Positions 2,879 through 37,494 of a stretch of DNA of 64,000 nt are shown piece by piece (position 1 is the first letter of the stretch; each line of letters starts with the position of its first letter). The stretch spans positions 162,898 through 226,897 of the forward strand of contig CAYRKM010000002.1 of the NCBI GenBank assembly GCA_964425075.1, written 5' to 3'. Origin of the DNA: an uncultured Gammaproteobacteria bacterium. GTDB lineage: Bacteria; Patescibacteriota; Microgenomatia; Levybacterales; GWA1-39-11. The translations under genes and the position numbers were made by a program. The notes under the pieces are model-generated. The model saw nothing but the letters and a program-made list of their open reading frames with translations. It was not told the origin of the DNA and searched no databases.

Positions 2879-4260
2879 ATCTTTTTAAAAACTTTTGGCT
2901 TCCCTTTTGGCTGATCCAAAATCTCATAACCCATTTTTTCAATTTTATGTCTCATTTGATCGGCAAGATGAAATTTGCCATCATTTCGAAGGCTTTGCCT
3001 TTCATCAACCATCTGCAGAATAGTTCCTGGAACTTGAGTCATCTCCACTGCATTATGAAAAATCTTTACTCCCAAAATCTCATCCATTCTTCCTAAAGCA
3101 GCTGCTTTCTGAGCATCTCCTACATTACTCCTTAACATCTCCCACATAATTGATAGTGCTTTTGGCATATTTAAGTCTTGATTTACTGCATGCAAAAAAT
3201 CCATTTCATATTTATCTGCTGCCCCCTGTGGTTCTGGCAATTTGGATGCTATCTCATATATTTTCTTAAGAGCAACTGAAGCAGCTTCTAAGGATTGCCA
3301 AGTAAAATTCATCTCGCTTCTGTAATGTGTTTGCAGGGTAAGATATCTAAATGCTAATGGTGAAAATCCCTTTTCCAAAAGATCATGAATTCTATAGGTA
3401 TTTTCCAAAGATTTACTCATCTTCGTTTCATTAACCCTTAGAAAACCATGATGCACCCAGTAATTTACGAATTTCTCACCAGTTGCGCATTCGGATTGGG
3501 CAATTTCATTTGTGTGATGAACAGGTATATGATCAGTTCCTCCAGTGTGAATATCAAAATGCAGCCCCAAATATTTCATTGACATTGCGCTACATTCAAT
3601 ATGCCATCCGGGAAAACCCTCTCCCCACGGAGATGGCCACCTAAGGAAGTGGTTTTCAAACCTACCTTTTGCAAAAAACCAAAGAGCGAAATCTTGAGGG
3701 TTTTTCTTATCCTTGTCTACCACCACACCCTCTCTTGAACCAACTTCTTTCTCGTCTAATTCTTGCCCCGAAAGTTTCGTGTAATCGGGAAATTTGCTAA
3801 CATCGAAATATATTGCTTGTGGGGTTTGGTATGTATACCCTTTTTCAATAAGTGTCTCAATGAGTGCAATCTGATCTTCAATATGCTCACTTGCCCTTGG
3901 TGCAACATCTGGTTTTATAGCATTTACCCTTTTTAAACTATCCCAAAAATCCTCTTCAAAAAACCGAGCTACCTCAATCGGCGTTTTTCCGTGTTTCTCT
4001 GCTCCTTTCTCTAATTTATCAATTCCTTCGTCATTGTCTGAAGTCAAATGTCCAACATCTGTTATATTCATTACGTGCTTAACTTCATAATCATTTGCTT
4101 TTAAAACTCGAACCAAAATATCATCTCCGATGTATTTTCGAAGGTGACCGATATGCGTAAAGTCATACACGGTTGGACCACAACAATATATTCCTACTTT
4201 TGCAGGGTTAATTGGAGAAAATTCCTCAAGCTTACGAGTTAATGAATTAAAGAGTTGCAC
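2875..4260 (-). CDS. cysS: cysteinyl-tRNA synthetase
   Basis: HIGH-type motif CGPTVYDFTHIGHLRKY, KMSKSLEN motif, class I CysRS architecture. Confidence 0.95.
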   Translation of the reverse strand: MQLFNSLTRKLEEFSPINPAKVGIYCCGPTVYDFTHIGHLRKYIGDDILVRVLKANDYEVKHVMNITDVGHLTSDNDEGIDKLEKGAEKHGKTPIEVARFFEEDFWDSLKRVNAIKPDVAPRASEHIEDQIALIETLIEKGYTYQTPQAIYFDVSKFPDYTKLSGQELDEKEVGSREGVVVDKDKKNPQDFALWFFAKGRFENHFLRWPSPWGEGFPGWHIECSAMSMKYLGLHFDIHTGGTDHIPVHHTNEIAQSECATGEKFVNYWVHHGFLRVNETKMSKSLENTYRIHDLLEKGFSPLAFRYLTLQTHYRSEMNFTWQSLEAASVALKKIYEIASKLPEPQGAADKYEMDFLHAVNQDLNMPKALSIMWEMLRSNVGDAQKAAALGRMDEILGVKIFHNAVEMTQVPGTILQMVDERQSLRNDGKFHLADQMRHKIEKMGYEILDQPKGKPKVFKKI

Positions 4261-31741: not shown

Positions 31742-32248
31742 GTGTACAATGGTTTCATGCCAAAACTTCATGAAGATTATTTACGTTCGCTAATGTTTGG
31801 TCTCCAAGATGGACTTGTTTCTACAACTGGTGTAGTTGTGGGAATTTCGGTTGGAACCAACAATAAACCCATTATTGTCCTTGCAGCGCTTGTTGCAGTT
31901 ATGGTTGAGGCAACCTCTATGGCTGCTGGGCAATATTCTTCTGAGAAAGCTGTCCACCAGATGGATAAAACAGGAAAACATACTGATAGCCTTATTCTGG
32001 GTGCATTAATTATGTTTTTTGCCTATCTTATCGGAGGAATGTTCTCCATTGTACCTACTATCTTCTTTGGACAGCCTGAAGCACAACTAATCGCTGTTCT
32101 TTCTGCCTTTGCTGGACTTTTCTTAGTAGGCTACATTAAAGGACAACTTGTAGAACACCACCCCTTAAGAAGTGCTGTTGAGCTCTTTATAATAGGTGCT
32201 GTTGCAACCGTGATTGGACTTGCTGTTGGACTATACCTTAAGGTTTAG
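31742..32248 (+). CDS. VIT1/CCC1-family (DUF125) membrane protein
   Basis: GLQDGLVSTTGVVVG motif, 5 TM. Confidence 0.78.
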   Translation: MYNGFMPKLHEDYLRSLMFGLQDGLVSTTGVVVGISVGTNNKPIIVLAALVAVMVEATSMAAGQYSSEKAVHQMDKTGKHTDSLILGALIMFFAYLIGGMFSIVPTIFFGQPEAQLIAVLSAFAGLFLVGYIKGQLVEHHPLRSAVELFIIGAVATVIGLAVGLYLKV

Positions 32249-34572
32249 GAAAGAAATGCACGAAGATAGGGCGTTGACATTACTATAAATTGAATAAGAA
32301 GCGTTATAAGAACTGAGAAAATAAGAAACCAACTTACTGGCCTAAATCCCCGACGTATAAGAAAAACGATCCCCATCTCGCCTATTATTAATGCATTAAA
32401 AACTACAAGTCGGGCGTTTTCATGTGGCATGTACTTTAGGCTTATGTAGTAAAGAACTAAAAGAAATAGGGCAAAAGGAACAGTTATTTTGGTAATTCTT
32501 ATAATCCTTTTAAGGCTTAAAATGTTTTCATTTACATTCCTTGGCTTCTTGAGCAATAAGTTCTTACCCTTCGTATCTGTTGAAAGAGCCAATGCAGGCA
32601 ATCCATCTCCTACTAAATTCACCCACAAAATCTGGGTCGCTGTAAGGGGAATAGGAAGTCCCAAAACAATACTTATGAAAATTAGTAAAAACTCTGTAAT
32701 ATTGGAGGACAAAAGGAAAACCACAACCTTCACAATGTTTTCAAATATCCCTCTTCCTTCCTCTACCGCTTTGACAATGGTATATAAATTGTCATCTGTT
32801 ATTACAACGTCAGACGCTTCCTTTGCTACATCAGTCCCACTCTTACCCATCGCAACCCCAATATGAGCCTCAGAAAGCGCTAATGCGTCATTTACCCCAT
32901 CCCCCGTTACGGCCACAACATAGCCTGCCTGCTTATAAAGTCTCACAAGACGCTGCTTATCCTCAGGCTTCATTCTTGCAAATATTCTTATGCTTGGAAG
33001 AATCCTCAACAATTCTTCATCCGTTGTTTTTTCCATCTCGTCTGTTGTAAATATCATTTCCCCATCTTTTATCAAACCCACTTCCTCAGCTATGAATTTT
33101 GCGGTTTGGGGGTTGTCTCCAGTTACCATAACCACCCTAATTCCAGCCTTATTTGCCTGAACTATGGCCTCTCTAGCCTCAATTCTTGGAGCATCATAAA
33201 TTCCCAATAACCCAATAAGGGCATATTCTTTTCCTTCTTTTGAAGCAAAAGCAATAACCCTAAGCCCAACGCTTGCCATTTTTTCCATTTTTTTAAATGC
33301 TTCTGTTTCTTTTGAATAACCTACAAGTTCAAATATGCTTTCGGGCGCGCCACGCACAAATTCCGTTTTCTTACCTTCATTTTCCCAAACAATATGAATT
33401 AATTTTGTCTCGGGGTCAAAAGGATCTTCGGATACAATTTTCCCCTCCTTTTGAAATTCTTCGAGGTTTTCTACCTTACCCTTTGCAAAAGAAAGCATTG
33501 CTCCATCAGTTTTGTCTCCTATAATTTCTATTTTCCCATCCTCTTCATCCACAAGGCTTGCAGTGTTTCCCAAAACACAGCTTCTAATAAGCAAAGGCAT
33601 TTTGCTATCAGCTACTAACCAATGCGACTTCACTGACATTTTATTCTGAGTGATAGTCCCTGTTTTATCAGACAAAACTGCAGTTGTTGCGCCCAATGTT
33701 TCAATTGCAGACATTTTACGCACGATGGTCTTTTGCTGCGCAAGCCGATGGGCCCCTACGGCCAAAGCAACAGTTACTACAAGAGGTAATCCCTCAGGAA
33801 TTACAGCAACTGCTACGCTAACAACGGTCAAAATAAGCTGCTGAAAATCTCTATTTTGAAGTATTCCAATCGGGATGAGTAATATTGCCAACAAAATTCC
33901 AAAAAATGCGAGTTTTTTACCTAATTCATCAATATTTTGAGCAAGAGGCGTTGGGGGGCGTTTTATTTTTTTTATAGCTGTAGCAATTTGTCCAAGTCGT
34001 GTTTTAAAACCCGTTGCCTCAATTTTAATCATTCCTTTTCCTTGTACGATAAAAGTTCCCATAAACATTGAGTCATTCAATTTCTTCTCAACAGACATCG
34101 ACTCTCCAGTGAGAAGAGACTCATCTATTTCAATAGGAACAGTAGTTAAAAGAATACCGTCAGCAGGAATTCTATCTCCCTCTCTTAACGAAACCATATC
34201 TCCTGGAACCAGCAACTTAGCCTCGATTTCGATCTCCTCACCGTCTCTTATAACTCTTGCTAATGGAGATGAGAGGTCTTTTAGTTTTTCAAGGGTTTTT
34301 TCAGCCCGAAATTGTTGAATAAAACCAAAAAGACCATTCAAAAGTAAAATAAGAAAAATGAAAAATGAGTCAGCTTTCTCTCCCAAAAACAAAGAAAAAA
34401 GACCCGCAAAGAACAATATTAACGTAATGATGTTGGTGTATTGTGAAATAAGAAGCCTAAAAATTGAGCTTGACTCTTTATCAGCTATCTCATTTTTCCC
34501 AAATTCCTTGAGCAATATATTTGCTTGCGACGAAGATATTCCCTGGTATTCTTGCTTCATAACAATTCTCAT
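32245..34572 (-). CDS. P-type cation-transporting ATPase (P2-type, Ca2+/Mg2+-like)
   Basis: DKTGTITQNKM, TGES, VTGDGVNDALALSEAHIGVAMG, 10 TM. Confidence 0.93.
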   Translation of the reverse strand: MRIVMKQEYQGISSSQANILLKEFGKNEIADKESSSIFRLLISQYTNIITLILFFAGLFSLFLGEKADSFFIFLILLLNGLFGFIQQFRAEKTLEKLKDLSSPLARVIRDGEEIEIEAKLLVPGDMVSLREGDRIPADGILLTTVPIEIDESLLTGESMSVEKKLNDSMFMGTFIVQGKGMIKIEATGFKTRLGQIATAIKKIKRPPTPLAQNIDELGKKLAFFGILLAILLIPIGILQNRDFQQLILTVVSVAVAVIPEGLPLVVTVALAVGAHRLAQQKTIVRKMSAIETLGATTAVLSDKTGTITQNKMSVKSHWLVADSKMPLLIRSCVLGNTASLVDEEDGKIEIIGDKTDGAMLSFAKGKVENLEEFQKEGKIVSEDPFDPETKLIHIVWENEGKKTEFVRGAPESIFELVGYSKETEAFKKMEKMASVGLRVIAFASKEGKEYALIGLLGIYDAPRIEAREAIVQANKAGIRVVMVTGDNPQTAKFIAEEVGLIKDGEMIFTTDEMEKTTDEELLRILPSIRIFARMKPEDKQRLVRLYKQAGYVVAVTGDGVNDALALSEAHIGVAMGKSGTDVAKEASDVVITDDNLYTIVKAVEEGRGIFENIVKVVVFLLSSNITEFLLIFISIVLGLPIPLTATQILWVNLVGDGLPALALSTDTKGKNLLLKKPRNVNENILSLKRIIRITKITVPFALFLLVLYYISLKYMPHENARLVVFNALIIGEMGIVFLIRRGFRPVSWFLIFSVLITLLIQFIVMSTPYLRAFLS

Positions 34573-34701
34573 GGTACCTGAAATTGCTTATTAAAAACAA
34601 GAACCCAAGTAGGAAATACTTTACTATATACATCTACCACTTGACATTTGGGCACAAGTAGTGTATATTACCGGACTAAGCTCTTAAACAGAGCTTTTTT
34701 T

Positions 34702-36012
34702 ATGAAAAAATTAATGAAGAAATTATTCTATTCTTTAGCAATTATTCTGTTGCTGGGGACCTTCGTATCTAAAGCATTCAACGCTGCTCCTGTAGTCCTT
34801 GCACAAGGCAACACAGATGTTACTATTTGTCACGCAACAGGAAGTTCTAGCAATCCCTACTCTAAAATTACAGTTGATGACGATGCTGTTGATGGAAATG
34901 GAAACAGCGACCACAACCGAAACGACCACCAAAATGGGGAAGATATTATTCCTCCAGGACCATGGGATTGGAATGGAAGAAATTGGGATACTACTGGTCA
35001 AGCAATTTGGAACAATAACTGTGTAGTACCTAATCCTTACTCTGTAGCAATTAACGAAGTCGCATTGAGCTGTGGATCTGGTCAAAAAACAATTACAGGT
35101 ACTGCTACTTTCGGCACAGATACTTCAACTACTCTACTTGTAAAAATTAACGGAACTACAGTTATTGATAGCGAAAGCGAAACTACTTCATGGAGCTTTA
35201 ATTACAACTTAACAGCAGGAACTAGCTACACTGTTACTGCAGCTGTATATGATAGTAGCAATCCAGACGTTACTGGATCACATCAAGATACACCTAAGGC
35301 TACTGATTCATGGACATTCACAGTAAACACCTGCGTTAATGACGTTTGTACTAATCTTGATGGAATTCAGGAATCATTACCAAATGGTTATTACTTTGCA
35401 AGTGCTGGAATTTGTGCTGAAAAAACTCCAGTGTGTACTGATGTAAATGCTTCAAACTATGATTCAGAAGTAACTGCTAACGAGTACAGCAACAATAATG
35501 TTTGCCAATACCCAATTGATGTATGTACCAATATTGATGGTACCCAAACCACATTGCCTGAAGGATATCATTATGCAGGTGAAGGTATTTGTGTGCAGGA
35601 TGAAGTAGAAACAACTCCTACTCCTACACCTACTCCAACCGATGAGTGTAGTGAATTTGATGAAAATGGAATTTGTATTGAATGTGACGGCGGTGGAGAA
35701 TGTGAAGTAGTTATTGGTGGCACACCAACTCCTACACCAACTCCAACTGAAACCGTAACACCAACTCCAACTCAACCTGCAAACGTAGGTGGAGCTGCTC
35801 CTGGAGGAGACGGACTTTCAGATGGACGTTCTGATGGAAGATCTGATGGACGAGGAGGACAAGCTCCTTCAGCAGGTCAAGTATTAGGTGCTAACACAAT
35901 GGGTGCAACTGGAGACTTTGGTTCACTTATCTCAAAAATGCTCTTCGCTTTAGGTCTTACTTTTACCACTCTTGCGAGTGCGGGCCATGCAAAAAAGAAA
36001 AAATTATCATAA
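34702..36012 (+). CDS. secreted Cys-rich, TP-repeat surface protein with C-terminal tripartite sorting signal (candidate sortase substrate)
   Basis: Signal peptide MKKLMKKLFYSLAIILLLGTFVSKAFNA; two tandem CTNxDGxQxxLPxGYxxAxxGIC modules; TPTPTPTPT linkers; SDGRSDGRSDGR; C-terminus LGANTMGATGDFGSLISKMLFALGLTFTTLASAGHAKKKKLS (motif, hydrophobic segment, then basic tail). Confidence 0.6.
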   Translation: MKKLMKKLFYSLAIILLLGTFVSKAFNAAPVVLAQGNTDVTICHATGSSSNPYSKITVDDDAVDGNGNSDHNRNDHQNGEDIIPPGPWDWNGRNWDTTGQAIWNNNCVVPNPYSVAINEVALSCGSGQKTITGTATFGTDTSTTLLVKINGTTVIDSESETTSWSFNYNLTAGTSYTVTAAVYDSSNPDVTGSHQDTPKATDSWTFTVNTCVNDVCTNLDGIQESLPNGYYFASAGICAEKTPVCTDVNASNYDSEVTANEYSNNNVCQYPIDVCTNIDGTQTTLPEGYHYAGEGICVQDEVETTPTPTPTPTDECSEFDENGICIECDGGGECEVVIGGTPTPTPTPTETVTPTPTQPANVGGAAPGGDGLSDGRSDGRSDGRGGQAPSAGQVLGANTMGATGDFGSLISKMLFALGLTFTTLASAGHAKKKKLS

Positions 36013-36598
36013 TTTTTTCTCCCGCAAAAAAATTCGCAAACTATCCAAAAAGATAACCGGGAGAATCACACGACTTAACAACCCCACAGTATTTTTTGCT
36101 TTGGGTCTTCTTTTCCTTGCCCTTTGGGGAATTCGGGAAGTACACATAGCAACAAGGCTTTCATTTAGTTCTACCGTTATAACAAATGAGCTAAGTGGAA
36201 ATATCATTCATCCAGTTAAAATTTCAATTCCCTCAATTAAAACTGACCTTCCAATTGAGGAAAAGCTGATTGAAAAAGGCATTTGGCAAATAAGCAACAA
36301 AGGAGTATCTCACCTAGCAACATCAGCATATCCTGGAAATCCTGGAAACATAATCATGTATGGACACAATACTGACGAAAGACTTGGAAGGTTGCAGTTT
36401 ATAAAAACGGGTGAAATTATAAAAATAACATCAACAAATGGAAGAGTATTTGAATATAAGGTAAAAACTGTAGAAGTAGTTAAGCCCACAGATATTGATA
36501 GGCTTATGTCATATTCTGGGGAAACCTTAACTATTTATACATGTATTGGATTTGCTGATCTTAAAAGAGTTTTGGTTAAGGCTGAAAGAGTAAGGTAA
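35972..36598 (+). CDS. sortase-family transpeptidase
   Basis: N-terminal TM; IPSIKTD; His-loop HLATSAYPGNPGNIIMYGHN; TLxTC-type LTIYTCIG; conserved Arg RVLVKAE; overlaps the upstream gene by 41 nt. Confidence 0.88.
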   Translation: MRVRAMQKRKNYHNFFSRKKIRKLSKKITGRITRLNNPTVFFALGLLFLALWGIREVHIATRLSFSSTVITNELSGNIIHPVKISIPSIKTDLPIEEKLIEKGIWQISNKGVSHLATSAYPGNPGNIIMYGHNTDERLGRLQFIKTGEIIKITSTNGRVFEYKVKTVEVVKPTDIDRLMSYSGETLTIYTCIGFADLKRVLVKAERVR

Positions 36599-36601
36599 CT
36601 T

Positions 36602-36817
36602 TCATTTTTTCCCATTAAGACACACCTTACACTCCCCCACATGGGTTGCTCCTATATATATTCCTGAAATTCCAACGAGAATGTAGAAAAAAGTCACGAA
36701 TCCTGGAATAAAAGCAAGTAAACTTTCTGCTAAATTAAGATTAAAAAGTCCCACAAGCCCCCAATTTATTGCTCCGATTAATACCAATAAAAAAGCTACA
36801 ATATGGATTCCTCGCAT
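36602..36817 (-). CDS. DUF378-family small membrane protein
   Basis: GAINWGLVGLFNLNLAE signature. Confidence 0.72.
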   Translation of the reverse strand: MRGIHIVAFLLVLIGAINWGLVGLFNLNLAESLLAFIPGFVTFFYILVGISGIYIGATHVGECKVCLNGKK

Positions 36818-36951: not shown

Positions 36952-37494
36952 ATGTCAGAAACACCCGAAGCATGTCCAAAATGCGGCAATCCACTTGCTG
37001 AGATAACCACAACTCCAACTGGTAGGAAACTACAGAGATGCTCAACTGGATCCTGGGACAAAGAAACGAGAAAAAATGTTGGATGCGACTTCGTAAAATG
37101 GCTTGAAGTAGAACCGCAAGAACTTGAAGAAAAATGTCCCAAATGTGGTTCCCCCCTAATTCTTGTCGTATCCCGTTTTGGTAAAAAAATGAAGAAATGC
37201 TCAACCAACAAATGGGATAAGGAAACAAAAAAGTCGTCGGGATGCGACTATATTGAATGGATAAATGGAACAACTGAGGAACTTGATGAAGACTGCCCTA
37301 CTTGTGGCAACAAACTTGTTCTCTATACAACCGCTGCCGGTAAAAAAATGAAGAAATGCTCAACCTCCGGATGGGACAGCAAAACAAGAACCGCAACGGG
37401 ATGCACATATGTTGAATGGTTAAAGCCTGGTGAATATCCCGTCAAATTTGATAGCGGTGGCGAAGAATTCCTTCCTCCAGAACCTAAAGATTAA
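36952..37494 (+). CDS. standalone protein of three tandem topoisomerase-I-type C4 zinc ribbons
   Basis: Three repeats of CPKCG(N/S)PL...(K/R)(L/M)(Q/K)(R/K)CST..WDKETxK..GCD(F/Y)(V/I)(K/E)W(L/I); both antisense track ORFs rejected. Confidence 0.75.
   Translation: MSETPEACPKCGNPLAEITTTPTGRKLQRCSTGSWDKETRKNVGCDFVKWLEVEPQELEEKCPKCGSPLILVVSRFGKKMKKCSTNKWDKETKKSSGCDYIEWINGTTEELDEDCPTCGNKLVLYTTAAGKKMKKCSTSGWDSKTRTATGCTYVEWLKPGEYPVKFDSGGEEFLPPEPKD

What the first reader, a model, noticed from the sequence alone, without database searches (positions are those of the whole stretch)
34702..36598. Sortase translationally coupled to a surface protein with a non-LPXTG tripartite sorting signal
The sortase (35972-36598) has a clear His-loop, a TLxTC-type LTIYTC catalytic Cys and the conserved Arg. 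It overlaps the 3' end of a large secreted Cys-rich, TPTPTP-linker protein.

That protein ends with LGANTMGATGDFG, then a hydrophobic stretch SLISKMLFALGLTFTTLASAG, then HAKKKKLS. This has the motif, TM, positive-tail layout of a cell-wall sorting signal but no LPXTG. The recognition motif of this CPR-type sortase may therefore differ, with LGANT or GATGD as candidates.

The substrate also carries two tandem Cys-containing modules of about 40 aa and an SDGRSDGRSDGR repeat.
Basis: partly seen in the sequence, partly recalled or inferred. Interest (0 to 1): 0.65.

Follow-up and report, generated by a model that had tools for sequence, protein, structure and literature searches.

The report
Patescibacterial sortase with MAxTG-type substrate
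This is a two-gene unit from a candidate-phyla-radiation bacterium, a membrane sortase and the surface protein it most likely anchors; the sorting signal is a diverged relative of LPXTG (M-G-A-T-G here, [M/L]-A-x-T-G in the family), which is useful for annotation but not a new kind of system.

Summary
A 436-aa secreted, Cys-rich protein (34702-36012) overlaps by 26 nt a 203-aa sortase (35987-36598) that has the His/Cys/Arg catalytic residues.

The "no LPXTG" reading holds only literally. Next to sortase homologues of this clade, 45 of 51 tabulated upstream genes (two more seen later) carry [L/M/F/Y]-[A/G/P]-x-T-G about 31 residues from the C-terminus. Ala fills position 2 in 46 of 51, and T and G are near-invariant. 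The background rate for other ORFs is at most 2 in 571.

The window's pentapeptide is therefore M400-G-A-T403|G404 (nt 35899-35913). It is not LGANT or GATGD. VLGA[N/S]T is a frequent upstream accessory box, but it is missing in two relatives of this clade that keep MAxTG.

The signal resembles the LAXTG signal of class E sortases. The enzyme, however, reaches no NCBIfam class cut-off (best 47.7 bits against 165) and lacks the class C lid and second membrane segment.

A 45-position profile of the signal finds 646 representative proteins, and the 150 best listed all match at their C-terminal end. Standard LPXTG models miss the window's tail.

Most likely function: dedicated cell-wall anchoring of a modular surface protein. 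Verdict: new variant of a known kind, moderate interest.

The parts
34641..34669 (+). Sigma-70-type promoter of the two-gene unit (TTGACA, 17 nt spacer, TATATT, with TG just upstream of the -10 element).
   Evidence: Matches 11 of 12 consensus positions. Both hexamers and the GTGTATATTACCGGA block are invariant in L001, L003 and L004, although the proteins are only 47-74% identical.
34678..34696 (+). Short hairpin in the 5' leader, followed by a T-run that abuts the start codon. Its function is unknown, and it may sequester a weak Shine-Dalgarno sequence.
   Evidence: The terminator-like scan found a 7-bp stem. L001 and L003 have a related hairpin that contains GAGG. Its role is inferred only.
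34702..36012 (+). Substrate gene: a 436-aa secreted, Cys-rich modular surface protein with a C-terminal sorting signal. An alternative start lies at 34714.
   Evidence: ORF. Orthologues lie next to sortase orthologues. No Pfam or NCBIfam family matches. The AlphaFold2 model has mean pLDDT 74.
34702..34803 (+). N-terminal Sec-type signal peptide (MKKLMKKLFYSLAIILLLGTFVSKAFNAAPVVLA; the cleavage site is approximate).
   Evidence: Hydrophobic windows cover residues 4-34. The model shows a helix at residues 2-25. The cleavage site is inferred.
34807..35037 (+). Head domain, residues 36-112 (VTICHATGSSSNPY...NGEDIIPPG...NNNC), of unknown function.
   Evidence: It is 64% identical to the N-termini of ~270-aa secreted proteins that lack an anchor. 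No Pfam hit. Orthologues L001 and L004 carry a different head.
35038..35331 (+). FN3/Ig-like beta-sandwich domain, residues ~113-210.
   Evidence: The model shows strands at residues 114-207. The best Foldseek PDB hits are the C. thermocellum CbhA FN3-like modules, E=2.9e-4.
35344..35592 (+). Cys modules in A-B-A order: A = residues 215-238, B = 244-268, A' = 274-297.
   Evidence: Regex coordinates. The same modules are seen in L003, L004, P0022 and P0029.
35614..35745 (+). Stalk: TPTPTPTP linker, 4-Cys knot (CSEFDENGICIECDGGGEC, 35647-35703), then a second TPTPTPTP linker.
   Evidence: Coordinates. The linkers have low pLDDT. The knot is conserved in all orthologues and in the sortase fusions.
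35818..35853 (+). SDGRSDGRSDGR repeat, part of a conserved GDGLSDGRSDG(R/L) box upstream of the signal.
   Evidence: Coordinates. Conserved in orthologues and in many family members. The region is disordered in the model. Function unknown.
35881..35898 (+). VLGANT, the accessory 'VLGxST' box directly upstream of the pentapeptide.
   Evidence: A VLG box lies within 8 residues upstream of the motif in 37 of 51 sortase-adjacent substrates and within 10 residues in 125 of 129 top representatives. It is absent in L004 and L064.
35899..35913 (+). Sorting pentapeptide M400-G-A-T403-G404. The predicted sortase cleavage is between T403 and G404.
   Evidence: Register taken, where T and G are invariant or near-invariant. 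TIGR01167 aligns in the same register in relatives. The cleavage itself is inferred.
35923..35985 (+). Hydrophobic membrane-retention segment, residues 408-428 (SLISKMLFALGLTFTTLASAG).
   Evidence: The model shows a helix at residues 406-435. Hydrophobicity. One Gly, 14 residues after the T-G, is invariant.
35986..36009 (+). Positively charged tail, HAKKKKLS.
   Evidence: Lys residues at 431-434.
35987..36012 (+). 26-nt overlap between the end of the substrate gene and the start of the sortase gene.
   Evidence: Overlaps of 26, 20, 23 and 23 nt are seen in L001, L003, L004 and L064. The DNA is almost identical in the window, L001 and L003.
35987..36598 (+). Sortase gene: 203 aa, with an N-terminal basic region, one membrane anchor and a catalytic domain.
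   Evidence: Pfam PF04203 E=1e-20. TIGR01076 scores above its cut-off. The AlphaFold2 model has pLDDT 79. Foldseek returns sortase structures at E~1e-11.
36086..36133 (+). N-terminal membrane anchor of the sortase (TVFFALGLLFLALWGI, residues 34-49).
   Evidence: This is the only hydrophobic window in the protein. The model shows a helix at residues 33-57.
36359..36370 (+). His loop YGHN (catalytic His127).
   Evidence: Invariant in alignment A1. It aligns with S. aureus SrtA H120.
36527..36544 (+). LTIYTC (catalytic Cys186).
   Evidence: Invariant in alignment A1. It aligns with the SrtA LTLITC motif, C184.
36563..36583 (+). KRVLVKA (conserved Arg194).
   Evidence: Arg194 is invariant in alignment A1.

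Best explanation
This is a dedicated sortase-substrate operon of a Patescibacteria (Microgenomatia-type) bacterium.

**Proposed steps**
1. One conserved promoter transcribes both genes.
2. The 436-aa protein is exported by its Sec signal peptide. Its 14 Cys residues form disulfides outside the cell.
3. Its C-terminal hydrophobic segment and KKKK tail hold it in the membrane.
4. The sortase is anchored next to it by an N-terminal membrane segment. It recognises M-G-A-T-G, the local version of the clade's [M/L]-A-x-T-G signal. The upstream VLGxST box possibly helps recognition.
5. The sortase cuts between T403 and G404 with Cys186, assisted by His127 and Arg194, and forms a thioacyl intermediate.
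6. It transfers the protein to an amine of the peptidoglycan precursor. The modular head (unknown domain, FN3-like domain, Cys modules) then sits on a TPTP/SDGR stalk, covalently attached to the cell wall.

**Shown here:** the gene pair and its conservation, sortase family membership with the catalytic residues, and the position and conservation of the pentapeptide.

**Inferred:** the cleavage site, the nucleophile, wall attachment, translational coupling and an adhesin-like role.
For: **Enzyme.** Pfam and TIGR01076 scores are above their cut-offs. His127, Cys186 and Arg194 are invariant in 16 homologues. They align to SrtA H120 and C184. The model has a sortase fold with a single N-terminal membrane helix.

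**Pairing.** In 51 tabulated loci with a sortase of this clade, the same-strand gene immediately upstream ends in a sorting signal. Of these, 45 have [LMFY][AGP]xTG 22-39 residues (median 31) from the C-terminus. Two further loci, L064 and L065, show the same. Among 615 ORFs of at least 100 aa in all fetched DNA, 44 have this feature and 42 of them are the sortase-adjacent gene.

**Register.** T and G are invariant in a 42-tail alignment. In 129 further representatives, Ala fills position 2 in 124, and T and G are present in all 129. In relatives, TIGR01167 places its LPXTG on this pentapeptide.

**Family size.** The signal profile finds 646 representatives at E<=1e-3, and the 150 best all match at the C-terminus.

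**Fusions.** Three natural proteins join the stalk and LAxTG motif directly to a sortase catalytic domain.

**Operon.** The promoter is conserved and the overlap is conserved.

**Background.** Sortases are reported as near-ubiquitous in Microgenomates (PMC6744442). CPR genomes carry peptidoglycan synthesis genes (PMC7143001).
Against: - There is no biochemical evidence. The cleavage site, the nucleophile and wall attachment are extrapolated from class A and class E sortases.
- The window's own motif has Gly where the family has Ala and the paradigm has Pro. Gly at this position is rare: 2 of 51 and 4 of 129.
- The window's tail is not recognised by the TIGR01167 or PF00746 models.
- Five sortase-adjacent relatives depart from T-G or from Ala at position 2 (LAGTS, LAATS, LAAAS, LSYTS, LSYTG), so the recognition rule is not uniform.
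- Only 64 kb of the source genome was visible. It is unknown whether this sortase has other substrates or paralogues.
Confidence: 0.72

Rival explanations
1. Pilus-type (class C-like) polymerising sortase. The enzyme would join copies of the adjacent protein head-to-tail through a lysine to build a surface fibre, rather than anchoring single molecules to the wall.
For: The best Foldseek PDB matches of the sortase model are class C pilus sortases, E about 3e-11. Several of the best PDB sequence hits are also class C. A sortase encoded next to its substrate is typical of pilus loci (established knowledge).
Against: - The class C NCBIfam model scores 45.4 bits against a cut-off of 160.
- There is no DP[W/F/Y] lid motif and no C-terminal membrane segment.
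- Class A and class E structures match almost as well, at E about 1e-9.
- The substrate has no YPKN-type pilin motif, and there is no Lys in the conserved stalk.
- Orthologues exchange their N-terminal heads, so no conserved nucleophile lysine is available.
- There is only one substrate gene, with no tip or base pilins.
Confidence: 0.08
2. The recognition or cleavage element is the VLGA[N/S]T box, and xAxTG is only a spacer.
For: The Leu of VLG is at least 90% conserved in the tail alignment. A VLG box is present in 125 of 129 top representatives and is often duplicated. A sub-variant, 'VLGLSTTS(G/D)', keeps the box but lacks a clear xAxTG.
Against: - Two relatives of this sortase clade (47-48% identical), each next to its sortase, lack the box but keep MAxTG: L004 ESYTMAPTG and L064 PAKAMASTG.
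- Only 37 of 51 sortase-adjacent substrates have the box, against 45 of 51 with the pentapeptide.
- T and G are invariant in the tail alignment, whereas the box residues vary.
- The LPXTG model aligns to the pentapeptide.
- In compressed variants, VLG abuts the pentapeptide directly (VLG-LADTG, VLG-LAETG, VLG-FADTG).
Confidence: 0.1
3. The tail is only a membrane anchor, or is handled by some other sorting system. On this view the sortase next door acts on other proteins, or the sortase releases the protein rather than attaching it.
For: Standard sorting-signal models do not recognise the window's tail. No experiment links the two proteins.
Against: The adjacency of a sortase with an xAxTG-type tail recurs in about 47 of 53 loci, against a background of at most 2 in 571 ORFs. 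The genes overlap. Natural fusions of the motif-bearing stalk to the sortase domain exist. No exosortase, archaeosortase or rhombosortase gene was seen among the neighbours examined.
Confidence: 0.07

Closest known systems
Class E sortases and their LAXTG signal (Streptomyces coelicolor SrtE1/SrtE2 with chaplins; PMC5148588)
   Same: The sorting signal has Ala instead of Pro at the second position and keeps T-G, followed by a hydrophobic segment and a basic tail. The enzyme has an N-terminal membrane anchor. SrtE1 also accepts LPETG, which parallels the occasional LPATG substrates seen next to sortases of this clade (L029, L010).
   Different: - The sortase scores 28.4 bits on the class E model against a cut-off of 160.
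- SrtE1 (5cuw) is a weak PDB sequence hit, E=2.6e-4, compared with 1.7e-15 for a class D enzyme.
- There is no conserved Tyr at the position aligned to SrtA A104 / SrtE1 Y229; an invariant Leu preceded by His sits there.
- The first motif position is mostly Met.
- There is an extra VLGxST box.
- The host is Patescibacteria, not Actinobacteria.
Staphylococcus aureus SrtA and the canonical LPXTG cell-wall sorting signal (TIGR01167, PF00746)
   Same: The tripartite signal, the His-Cys-Arg catalytic residues, the beta-barrel fold and the type II membrane anchoring are shared. The predicted cleavage between T and G is the same.
   Different: Motif positions 1 and 2 differ (M-G here, M/L-A in the family). 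The curated signal models miss the window's tail. The sortase gene overlaps a single substrate gene, unlike a housekeeping enzyme with many scattered substrates.
Class D sortases (Clostridium perfringens SrtD, PDB 4d70) and class C pilus sortases
   Same: These are the best sequence match (4d70, E=1.7e-15) and the best fold matches (class C, E about 1e-11). The NCBIfam class D and class C models are the best-scoring class models.
   Different: Scores are far below both class cut-offs (47.7 against 165; 45.4 against 160). There is no lid, no C-terminal membrane segment and no pilin-type substrate. The cognate motif is not LPNTA or LPQTGS.
Dedicated sortase-target pairs such as the class GN ('marine') sortase TIGR03784 with its single adjacent target (own knowledge of the TIGRFAMs description)
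   Same: One sortase is encoded next to one cognate target that carries a non-canonical motif.
   Different: TIGR03784 scores only 37.4 bits against a cut-off of 158. The motif and the target protein are different, and the envelope is monoderm-type.
CPR sortase family fam000526 (Meheust et al. 2019, PMC6744442)
   Same: This is probably the same enzyme family. It is reported in more than half of CPR genomes and as near-ubiquitous in Microgenomates.
   Different: The passages of that paper retrieved by searching for 'sortase' do not mention a cognate sorting signal or substrate pairing. The paper was not read in full. The motif consensus and the adjacency were derived here.

Membership tests
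Sortase superfamily (Pfam PF04203 / TIGR01076) | Profile score above the curated cut-off | tested here: met
   PF04203 scores 74.1 bits against 26.6. TIGR01076 scores 56.8 bits against 39.35. All 16 homologues match TIGR01076 at E<=0.001.
Sortase superfamily (Pfam PF04203 / TIGR01076) | Catalytic His, the Cys of the TLxTC motif, and a downstream Arg | tested here: met
   His127, Cys186 (LTIYTC) and Arg194 are invariant in alignment A1. His and Cys align with SrtA H120 and C184.
Sortase superfamily (Pfam PF04203 / TIGR01076) | Sortase beta-barrel fold with a membrane anchor | tested here: met
   The catalytic domain of the AlphaFold2 model has pLDDT about 82-96. Foldseek PDB gives 115 matches at E<=0.001, and all 50 listed are sortases. 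There is one N-terminal hydrophobic helix.
Sortase superfamily (Pfam PF04203 / TIGR01076) | Transpeptidase activity on a sorting signal | not testable with these tools
   This needs a cleavage or ligation assay with recombinant enzyme.
Class E sortase | NCBIfam NF033747 score of at least 160 bits | tested here: not met
   28.4 bits. Across the 16 homologues the best E-value is 4.2e-13, which is far weaker than a score at the 160-bit cut-off would give; bit scores for the other members were not listed.
Class E sortase | Cognate signal with Ala at the second motif position (LAXTG) | tested here: met
   Ala is found in 46 of 51 sortase-adjacent substrates and in 124 of 129 representatives. The window itself has Gly (MGATG).
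Class E sortase | Conserved Tyr in the beta3/beta4 loop (SrtE1 Y229, equivalent to SrtA A104; PMC5148588) | tested here: inconclusive
   In the profile alignment to SrtA, A104 falls on the invariant Leu110, preceded by the near-invariant His109. No conserved Tyr is nearby. No structural superposition on 5cuw was possible.
Class C (pilus) sortase | NF033745 score of at least 160 bits, a DP[W/F/Y] lid, a C-terminal membrane segment and a pilin substrate with a YPKN lysine | tested here: not met
   45.4 bits. There is no lid motif, only one N-terminal hydrophobic segment, and no pilin motif in the substrate.
Class D sortase | NF033746 score of at least 165 bits, or NF058671 of at least 140 bits | tested here: not met
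   47.7 and 44.7 bits.
LPXTG-type cell-wall sorting signal | Tripartite layout: pentapeptide, then a hydrophobic segment of about 20 residues, then a basic tail at the extreme C-terminus | tested here: met
   MGATG at residues 400-404, hydrophobic segment at 408-428, and HAKKKKLS at 429-436. There are 32 residues after the motif, against a family median of 31.
LPXTG-type cell-wall sorting signal | Recognition by TIGR01167 or PF00746 above the cut-off | tested here: not met
   The window's tail gives no hit at E<=10. Relatives are hit in the same register: the LANTG tail scores 23.1 bits and the LPATG tail 16.6 bits against a cut-off of 15.9, and other tails fall below it.
LPXTG-type cell-wall sorting signal | Literal L-P-x-T-G | tested here: not met
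   The window has M-G-A-T-G. T and G are retained, but L and P are not.
LPXTG-type cell-wall sorting signal | Cleavage between T and G, and amide linkage to peptidoglycan | not testable with these tools
   This needs peptide cleavage mapping or muropeptide mass spectrometry.

The most novel reading that the evidence does not exclude
These enzymes form a distinct, so far unnamed class of Patescibacteria sortases. Each works one-to-one with an adjacent, overlapping substrate gene and reads a bipartite signal: a VLGxST box plus [M/L]-A-x-T-G. The VLGxST box would be a second recognition element with no counterpart in classes A-F. The constant stalk-and-signal cassette would display rapidly exchanged head domains used for attachment to host cells. 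Natural stalk-motif-sortase fusions would be self-processing versions of the system.
Probability: 0.25. Interest if true: 0.55.

Novelty: new variant of a known kind. Interest (0 to 1): 0.38.

Why it matters
Patescibacteria (CPR) are thought to live attached to other cells, but their covalently displayed surface proteins are largely unannotated. The sorting signal derived here is [M/L/Y/F]-A-x-T-G, about 31 residues from the C-terminus and usually preceded by VLGxST.

The curated LPXTG models miss this signal in the window protein and score most of the other tails tested below their cut-offs. A dedicated profile could therefore list candidate wall-anchored proteins across Microgenomatia genomes; at least 646 representative clusters were already found here. 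That list would point to candidate host-binding proteins.

The result also shows that an LAXTG-like specificity occurs outside class E sortases and outside Actinobacteria. This is a useful comparison for work on how sortases read the second motif position, and possibly for orthogonal sortase-ligation tools.

It does not change the general picture of how sortases work.

Tried and rejected
**Motif candidates**
1. LGANT and GATGD as the pentapeptide were rejected by the alignments, and by the box-less orthologues.

**Sortase class**
2. Class E membership, suggested by the LAXTG-like motif, was rejected by HMM score and PDB ranking.
3. Class C (pilus) membership, suggested by the fold-search ranking, was rejected because there is no lid, no second membrane segment and no pilin motif.
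4. I looked for a specificity determinant by aligning to SrtA A104. It falls on an invariant Leu next to a near-invariant His. This is suggestive at best and is not claimed.

**Substrate function**
5. Pfam and NCBIfam scans of the substrate found nothing above noise. Foldseek of the substrate model recognised only an FN3-like sandwich. The head-domain function remains unknown.

**Other substrates and context**
6. No other sorting-signal protein was found in the 64-kb window. The rest of the source genome could not be reached: the best hit in the species-representative genome collection is only 41% identical, and the only other contig with the identical sortase is 4.8 kb.
7. Rfam found one tRNA in the window and nothing relevant to the locus. 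Neighbouring genes (P-type ATPase, VIT1, DUF378, Zn-ribbon protein, GH63-like hydrolase) are not conserved partners beyond close relatives.

**Literature**
8. Five full-text searches found no description of a CPR sorting signal: sortase with Patescibacteria; with candidate phyla radiation and sorting signal; with LAXTG; with Microgenomates; and with Saccharibacteria and LPXTG. Only statements that CPR genomes encode sortases turned up. The library does not cover subscription journals.
Full report
**1. What is in the sequence**

The region holds two same-strand genes, flanked by genes on the opposite strand.
- Upstream lies a P-type ATPase at 32245-34572 on the minus strand (Pfam families on the L001 and L003 orthologues).
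- Downstream lies a DUF378 protein at 36602-36817 on the minus strand.

The first gene (34702-36012) encodes a 436-aa protein with the following parts.
- An N-terminal signal peptide.
- 14 cysteines.
- Two TPTPTPTP linkers.
- An SDGR x3 repeat.
- The tail ...VLGANTMGATGDFG-SLISKMLFALGLTFTTLASAG-HAKKKKLS.

The second gene encodes a sortase.
- Pfam PF04203 scores 74.1 bits against a cut-off of 26.6.
- TIGR01076 scores 56.8 bits against 39.35.
- It has one N-terminal membrane helix.
- It carries YGHN (His127), LTIYTC (Cys186) and KRVLVKA (Arg194).
- The database gene call and all orthologues start at the ATG at 35987 (203 aa), not at the TTG at 35972.
- With the ATG start, the overlap with the substrate gene is 26 nt.

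The one correction concerns the 'two tandem 40-aa Cys modules'. They are two 24-aa copies (residues 215-238 and 274-297) with a different Cys module between them.

**2. The pair is conserved**

Only 17 close homologues of the sortase exist in 5.8 billion clustered proteins. On every contig examined, the sortase is preceded by a substrate-type gene that overlaps it by 20-26 nt. These contigs are L001, L003, L004 and L064.
- The overlapping DNA is nearly identical among the window, L001 and L003.
- A strong sigma-70-type promoter (TTGACA, 17 nt, TATATT; 34641-34669) is invariant in the relatives.

A profile of the sortase found 54 loci in species-representative genomes. Those whose records name a specific taxon are Patescibacteria of the Microgenomates type or related groups: Levy-, Roizman-, Woese-, Gottesman-, Curtiss-, Davies- and Pacebacteria, plus one Saccharimonadia. 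Many other records carry 'uncultured Gammaproteobacteria' or 'Pseudomonadales' titles, which look like mislabels. The best of these loci is only 41% identical to the window's sortase, so the window's own lineage is not represented closely.

**3. Deriving the motif**

For each locus I took the same-strand gene ending just upstream of the sortase.
- Of the 51 tabulated, 45 carry [L/M/F/Y]-[A/G/P]-x-T-G.
- The motif sits 22-39 residues (median 31) from the C-terminus.
- Position 1 is L 29, Y 8, M 7, F 6.
- Position 2 is Ala in 46. Position 4 is Thr in 49. Position 5 is Gly in 46.
- Only one locus has LPATG.
- L064 (MASTG) and L065 (LAATG) add two more.

As a background check, 615 ATG-started ORFs of at least 100 aa in all fetched DNA contain 44 with this feature. 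Of those, 42 are the sortase-adjacent gene. One is a second genuine LPVTG protein and one is a false positive.

Homologues of the substrate point the same way.
- 60 of 120 end with the signal.
- In a MAFFT alignment of 42 tails, the only invariant columns are the T and G of the pentapeptide and one Gly 14 residues later, inside the hydrophobic segment.
- A 45-position profile of this alignment, run against 1.84 billion representative proteins, found 646 hits at E<=1e-3. The 150 best all match at the very C-terminus.
- Among 130 new representatives, 129 have the motif. Position 1 is Met in 111, position 2 is Ala in 124, and the last position is Gly in all 129.

The archetype is (Q)VLGAST-MAxTG-(T/V)F(E)(D). 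The window's version is VLGANT-MGATG-DF. The pentapeptide is M400-G-A-T403-G404, nt 35899-35913.

**4. Which element is recognised**

- GATGD is one residue out of register with the conserved block.
- LGANT corresponds to the VLGxST box. The box is common: 37 of 51 sortase-adjacent substrates and 125 of 129 representatives. It is often duplicated (36 of 129).

The box is dispensable in two relatives of the window's own sortase clade (47-48% identical).
- L004 has ...TIESYTMAPTGSF.
- L064 has ...VPAKAMASTGSF.
- Both sit next to their sortases.

In compressed variants, VLG directly abuts the pentapeptide: VLG-LADTG, VLG-LAETG and VLG-FADTG.

The curated LPXTG-anchor model TIGR01167 does not detect the window's tail at E<=10. 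It does align its LPXTG positions to the xAxTG pentapeptide in relatives.
- A LANTG tail scores 23.1 bits and an LPATG tail 16.6 bits, against a cut-off of 15.9.
- PF00746 gives sub-threshold hits in the same register.

The signal is therefore a diverged member of the LPXTG continuum, not a different kind of signal. The VLGxST box may still be an auxiliary recognition element. This could not be tested.

**5. What class of sortase**

- No NCBIfam class model comes near its cut-off:

| NCBIfam class model | Score (bits) | Cut-off (bits) |
|---|---|---|
| D | 47.7 | 165 |
| C | 45.4 | 160 |
| GN | 37.4 | 158 |
| F | 31.0 | 166 |
| E | 28.4 | 160 |

- By sequence, the best solved relative is C. 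perfringens SrtD (4d70, 1.7e-15), followed by class C and class A enzymes. SrtE1 (5cuw) is weak at 2.6e-4.
- The AlphaFold2 model has mean pLDDT 79, and about 82-96 in the catalytic domain.
- The model matches class C sortases best (E about 3e-11). Class A and E structures follow closely at about 1e-9.
- The protein has no DP[W/F/Y] lid and no C-terminal membrane segment.

Class E enzymes are the ones known to use LAXTG. They are proposed to read the Ala through a conserved Tyr in the beta3/beta4 loop, equivalent to SrtA A104 (PMC5148588). In the profile alignment to SrtA, that position is an invariant Leu preceded by a near-invariant His, with no conserved Tyr nearby. The enzyme works like a class E sortase in motif preference, but it fails the membership tests for class E and for every other named class.

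**6. The substrate**

The AlphaFold2 model has mean pLDDT 74. It shows the following regions.
- A signal helix.
- A head domain at residues 36-112.
- A beta-sandwich at about 113-210.
- Small disulfide modules.
- Disordered TPTP and SDGR regions (residues 358-401 have pLDDT below 50).
- A terminal helix at residues 406-435.

Foldseek recognises only the sandwich, as FN3-like (CbhA modules, E=2.9e-4).

The head domain is 64% identical to the N-termini of about 270-aa secreted proteins that have no anchor. Orthologous substrates next to orthologous sortases carry different heads. They keep the last ~110 residues: the Cys knot, TPTP linkers, the GDGLSDGRSDG box and the signal. This is the pattern of a constant display cassette with exchangeable heads. 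An adhesin-type role is an inference only.

There is no pilin motif and no Lys in the conserved stalk. This argues against pilus polymerisation.

**7. Extra support from fusions**

Three protein clusters consist of a signal peptide, the same stalk, a VLGxST-LAxTG motif and then directly a sortase catalytic domain. Neither the substrate's membrane tail nor the sortase's membrane anchor is present. The clusters are P0076, P0110 and P0116, and P0076 and P0116 were confirmed as intact ORFs on independent contigs. These Rosetta-stone fusions link the motif-bearing stalk to the enzyme. How such fusions function is unknown.

**8. Mechanism and confidence**

The most likely sequence of events is as follows.
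1. Sec export of the substrate.
2. Membrane retention by the hydrophobic segment and the KKKK tail.
3. Cleavage between T403 and G404 by Cys186.
4. Transfer to a peptidoglycan precursor amine.

CPR genomes encode peptidoglycan synthesis (PMC7143001). Sortases are reported as near-ubiquitous in Microgenomates (PMC6744442). The gene pairing, the motif register and sortase family membership are shown here. Cleavage, the nucleophile and translational coupling are inferred. Overall confidence is 0.72.

**9. Novelty**

Sortases in CPR are known, and LAXTG-type signals are known from Actinobacteria. Five full-text searches found no description of the cognate signal of the CPR sortases. No NCBIfam or Pfam model captures it.

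I rate this as a new variant of a known kind. It combines an unclassified sortase clade, a Met/Ala (here Met/Gly) form of the pentapeptide, an upstream VLGxST box and a one-to-one overlapping gene pair. It is useful for annotating CPR surface proteomes, but it would not surprise a sortase specialist. Interest: 0.38.

Noticed in passing
L061:4001-4909 (P0116), L062:4001-5155 (P0076); P0110: These are natural fusion proteins. Each has a signal peptide, a substrate-type stalk (Cys knot, TPTP linkers, SDGRSDG) and a VLGxST-LAxTG motif, followed directly by a sortase catalytic domain. Both the substrate's C-terminal membrane tail and the sortase's N-terminal anchor are missing. They could be self-processing forms. 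No separate substrate gene lies next to them.
   Followed up: partly
L045, L049, L050, L053, L055 (genes just upstream of the sortase match); P0079, P0099, P0122, P0124, P0128: Variant signals depart from the [LMFY][AGP]xTG rule: VLGLSYTG, VLGLSYTS, STLAGTSS, STLAATSS, TTLAAASS and 'VLGLSTTS(G/D)'. All but VLGLSYTG also lack the T-G pair. This may be a second specificity group within the same sortase clade.
   Followed up: no
window 35818-35853 and homologues (for example P0060, P0073, P0081, L012, L015, L017, L030): A conserved box, GDG(L/R)SDGRSDG(R/L), lies 15-30 residues upstream of the signal. In many relatives it is followed by SSCPxCTxAP. It is disordered in the model and its function is unknown. 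It is reminiscent of the Ser-Asp repeat regions upstream of LPXTG in staphylococcal Sdr/Clf proteins (own knowledge).
   Followed up: no
tails of P0033, P0050, P0083, L048, L035 and others: The VLGxST box is often duplicated a few residues apart (for example QVLGASTGKVLGASTMAGTG). This occurs in 36 of 129 top representatives.
   Followed up: partly
alignment A4, column of window residue Gly418 (nt 35953-35955): One Gly inside the hydrophobic segment, 14 residues after the T-G, is invariant in all 42 aligned tails.
   Followed up: no
window 34807-35037; P0025, P0027, P0028 and about 30 similar proteins: The head domain (VTICHATGSxxNPY...DHN...NGEDIIPPG...GRNWD...NNNC) is shared at about 60% identity with ~270-aa secreted proteins. 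Those proteins lack any anchor and end in a conserved ...GCAVG..S..FDP..P module. No Pfam family matches.
   Followed up: partly
L001:5169-6026 and L004:2391-3563 compared with window 34702-36012: Orthologous substrates next to orthologous sortases have exchanged their N-terminal head domains. They keep the last ~110 residues (stalk and signal).
   Followed up: partly
window 34641-34696: The promoter and the GTGTATATTACCGGA block are invariant across relatives whose proteins are only 47-74% identical. A small leader hairpin followed by a T-run ends 5 nt before the start codon.
   Followed up: partly
L007, L009, L010, L012, L014, L015 and others (record titles): Many MAG records carrying these Patescibacteria-type sortase loci are titled 'uncultured Gammaproteobacteria' or 'uncultured Pseudomonadales'. 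These are probably placeholder or wrong taxonomic labels.
   Followed up: no
L044 (1013-aa ORF on the + strand ending ...ALPVTGPADW...); L010:1-1938 and 3042-3893: Canonical LPXTG-type tails (LPVTG, VLPATG) occur in the same loci as xAxTG tails. Some of these genomes therefore mix both motif forms.
   Followed up: no
window 36952-37494 (+): A 180-aa protein is made of three repeats of a Top1-type C4 zinc ribbon. It is conserved downstream of the pair in L003 and L063. Its function is unknown.
   Followed up: no
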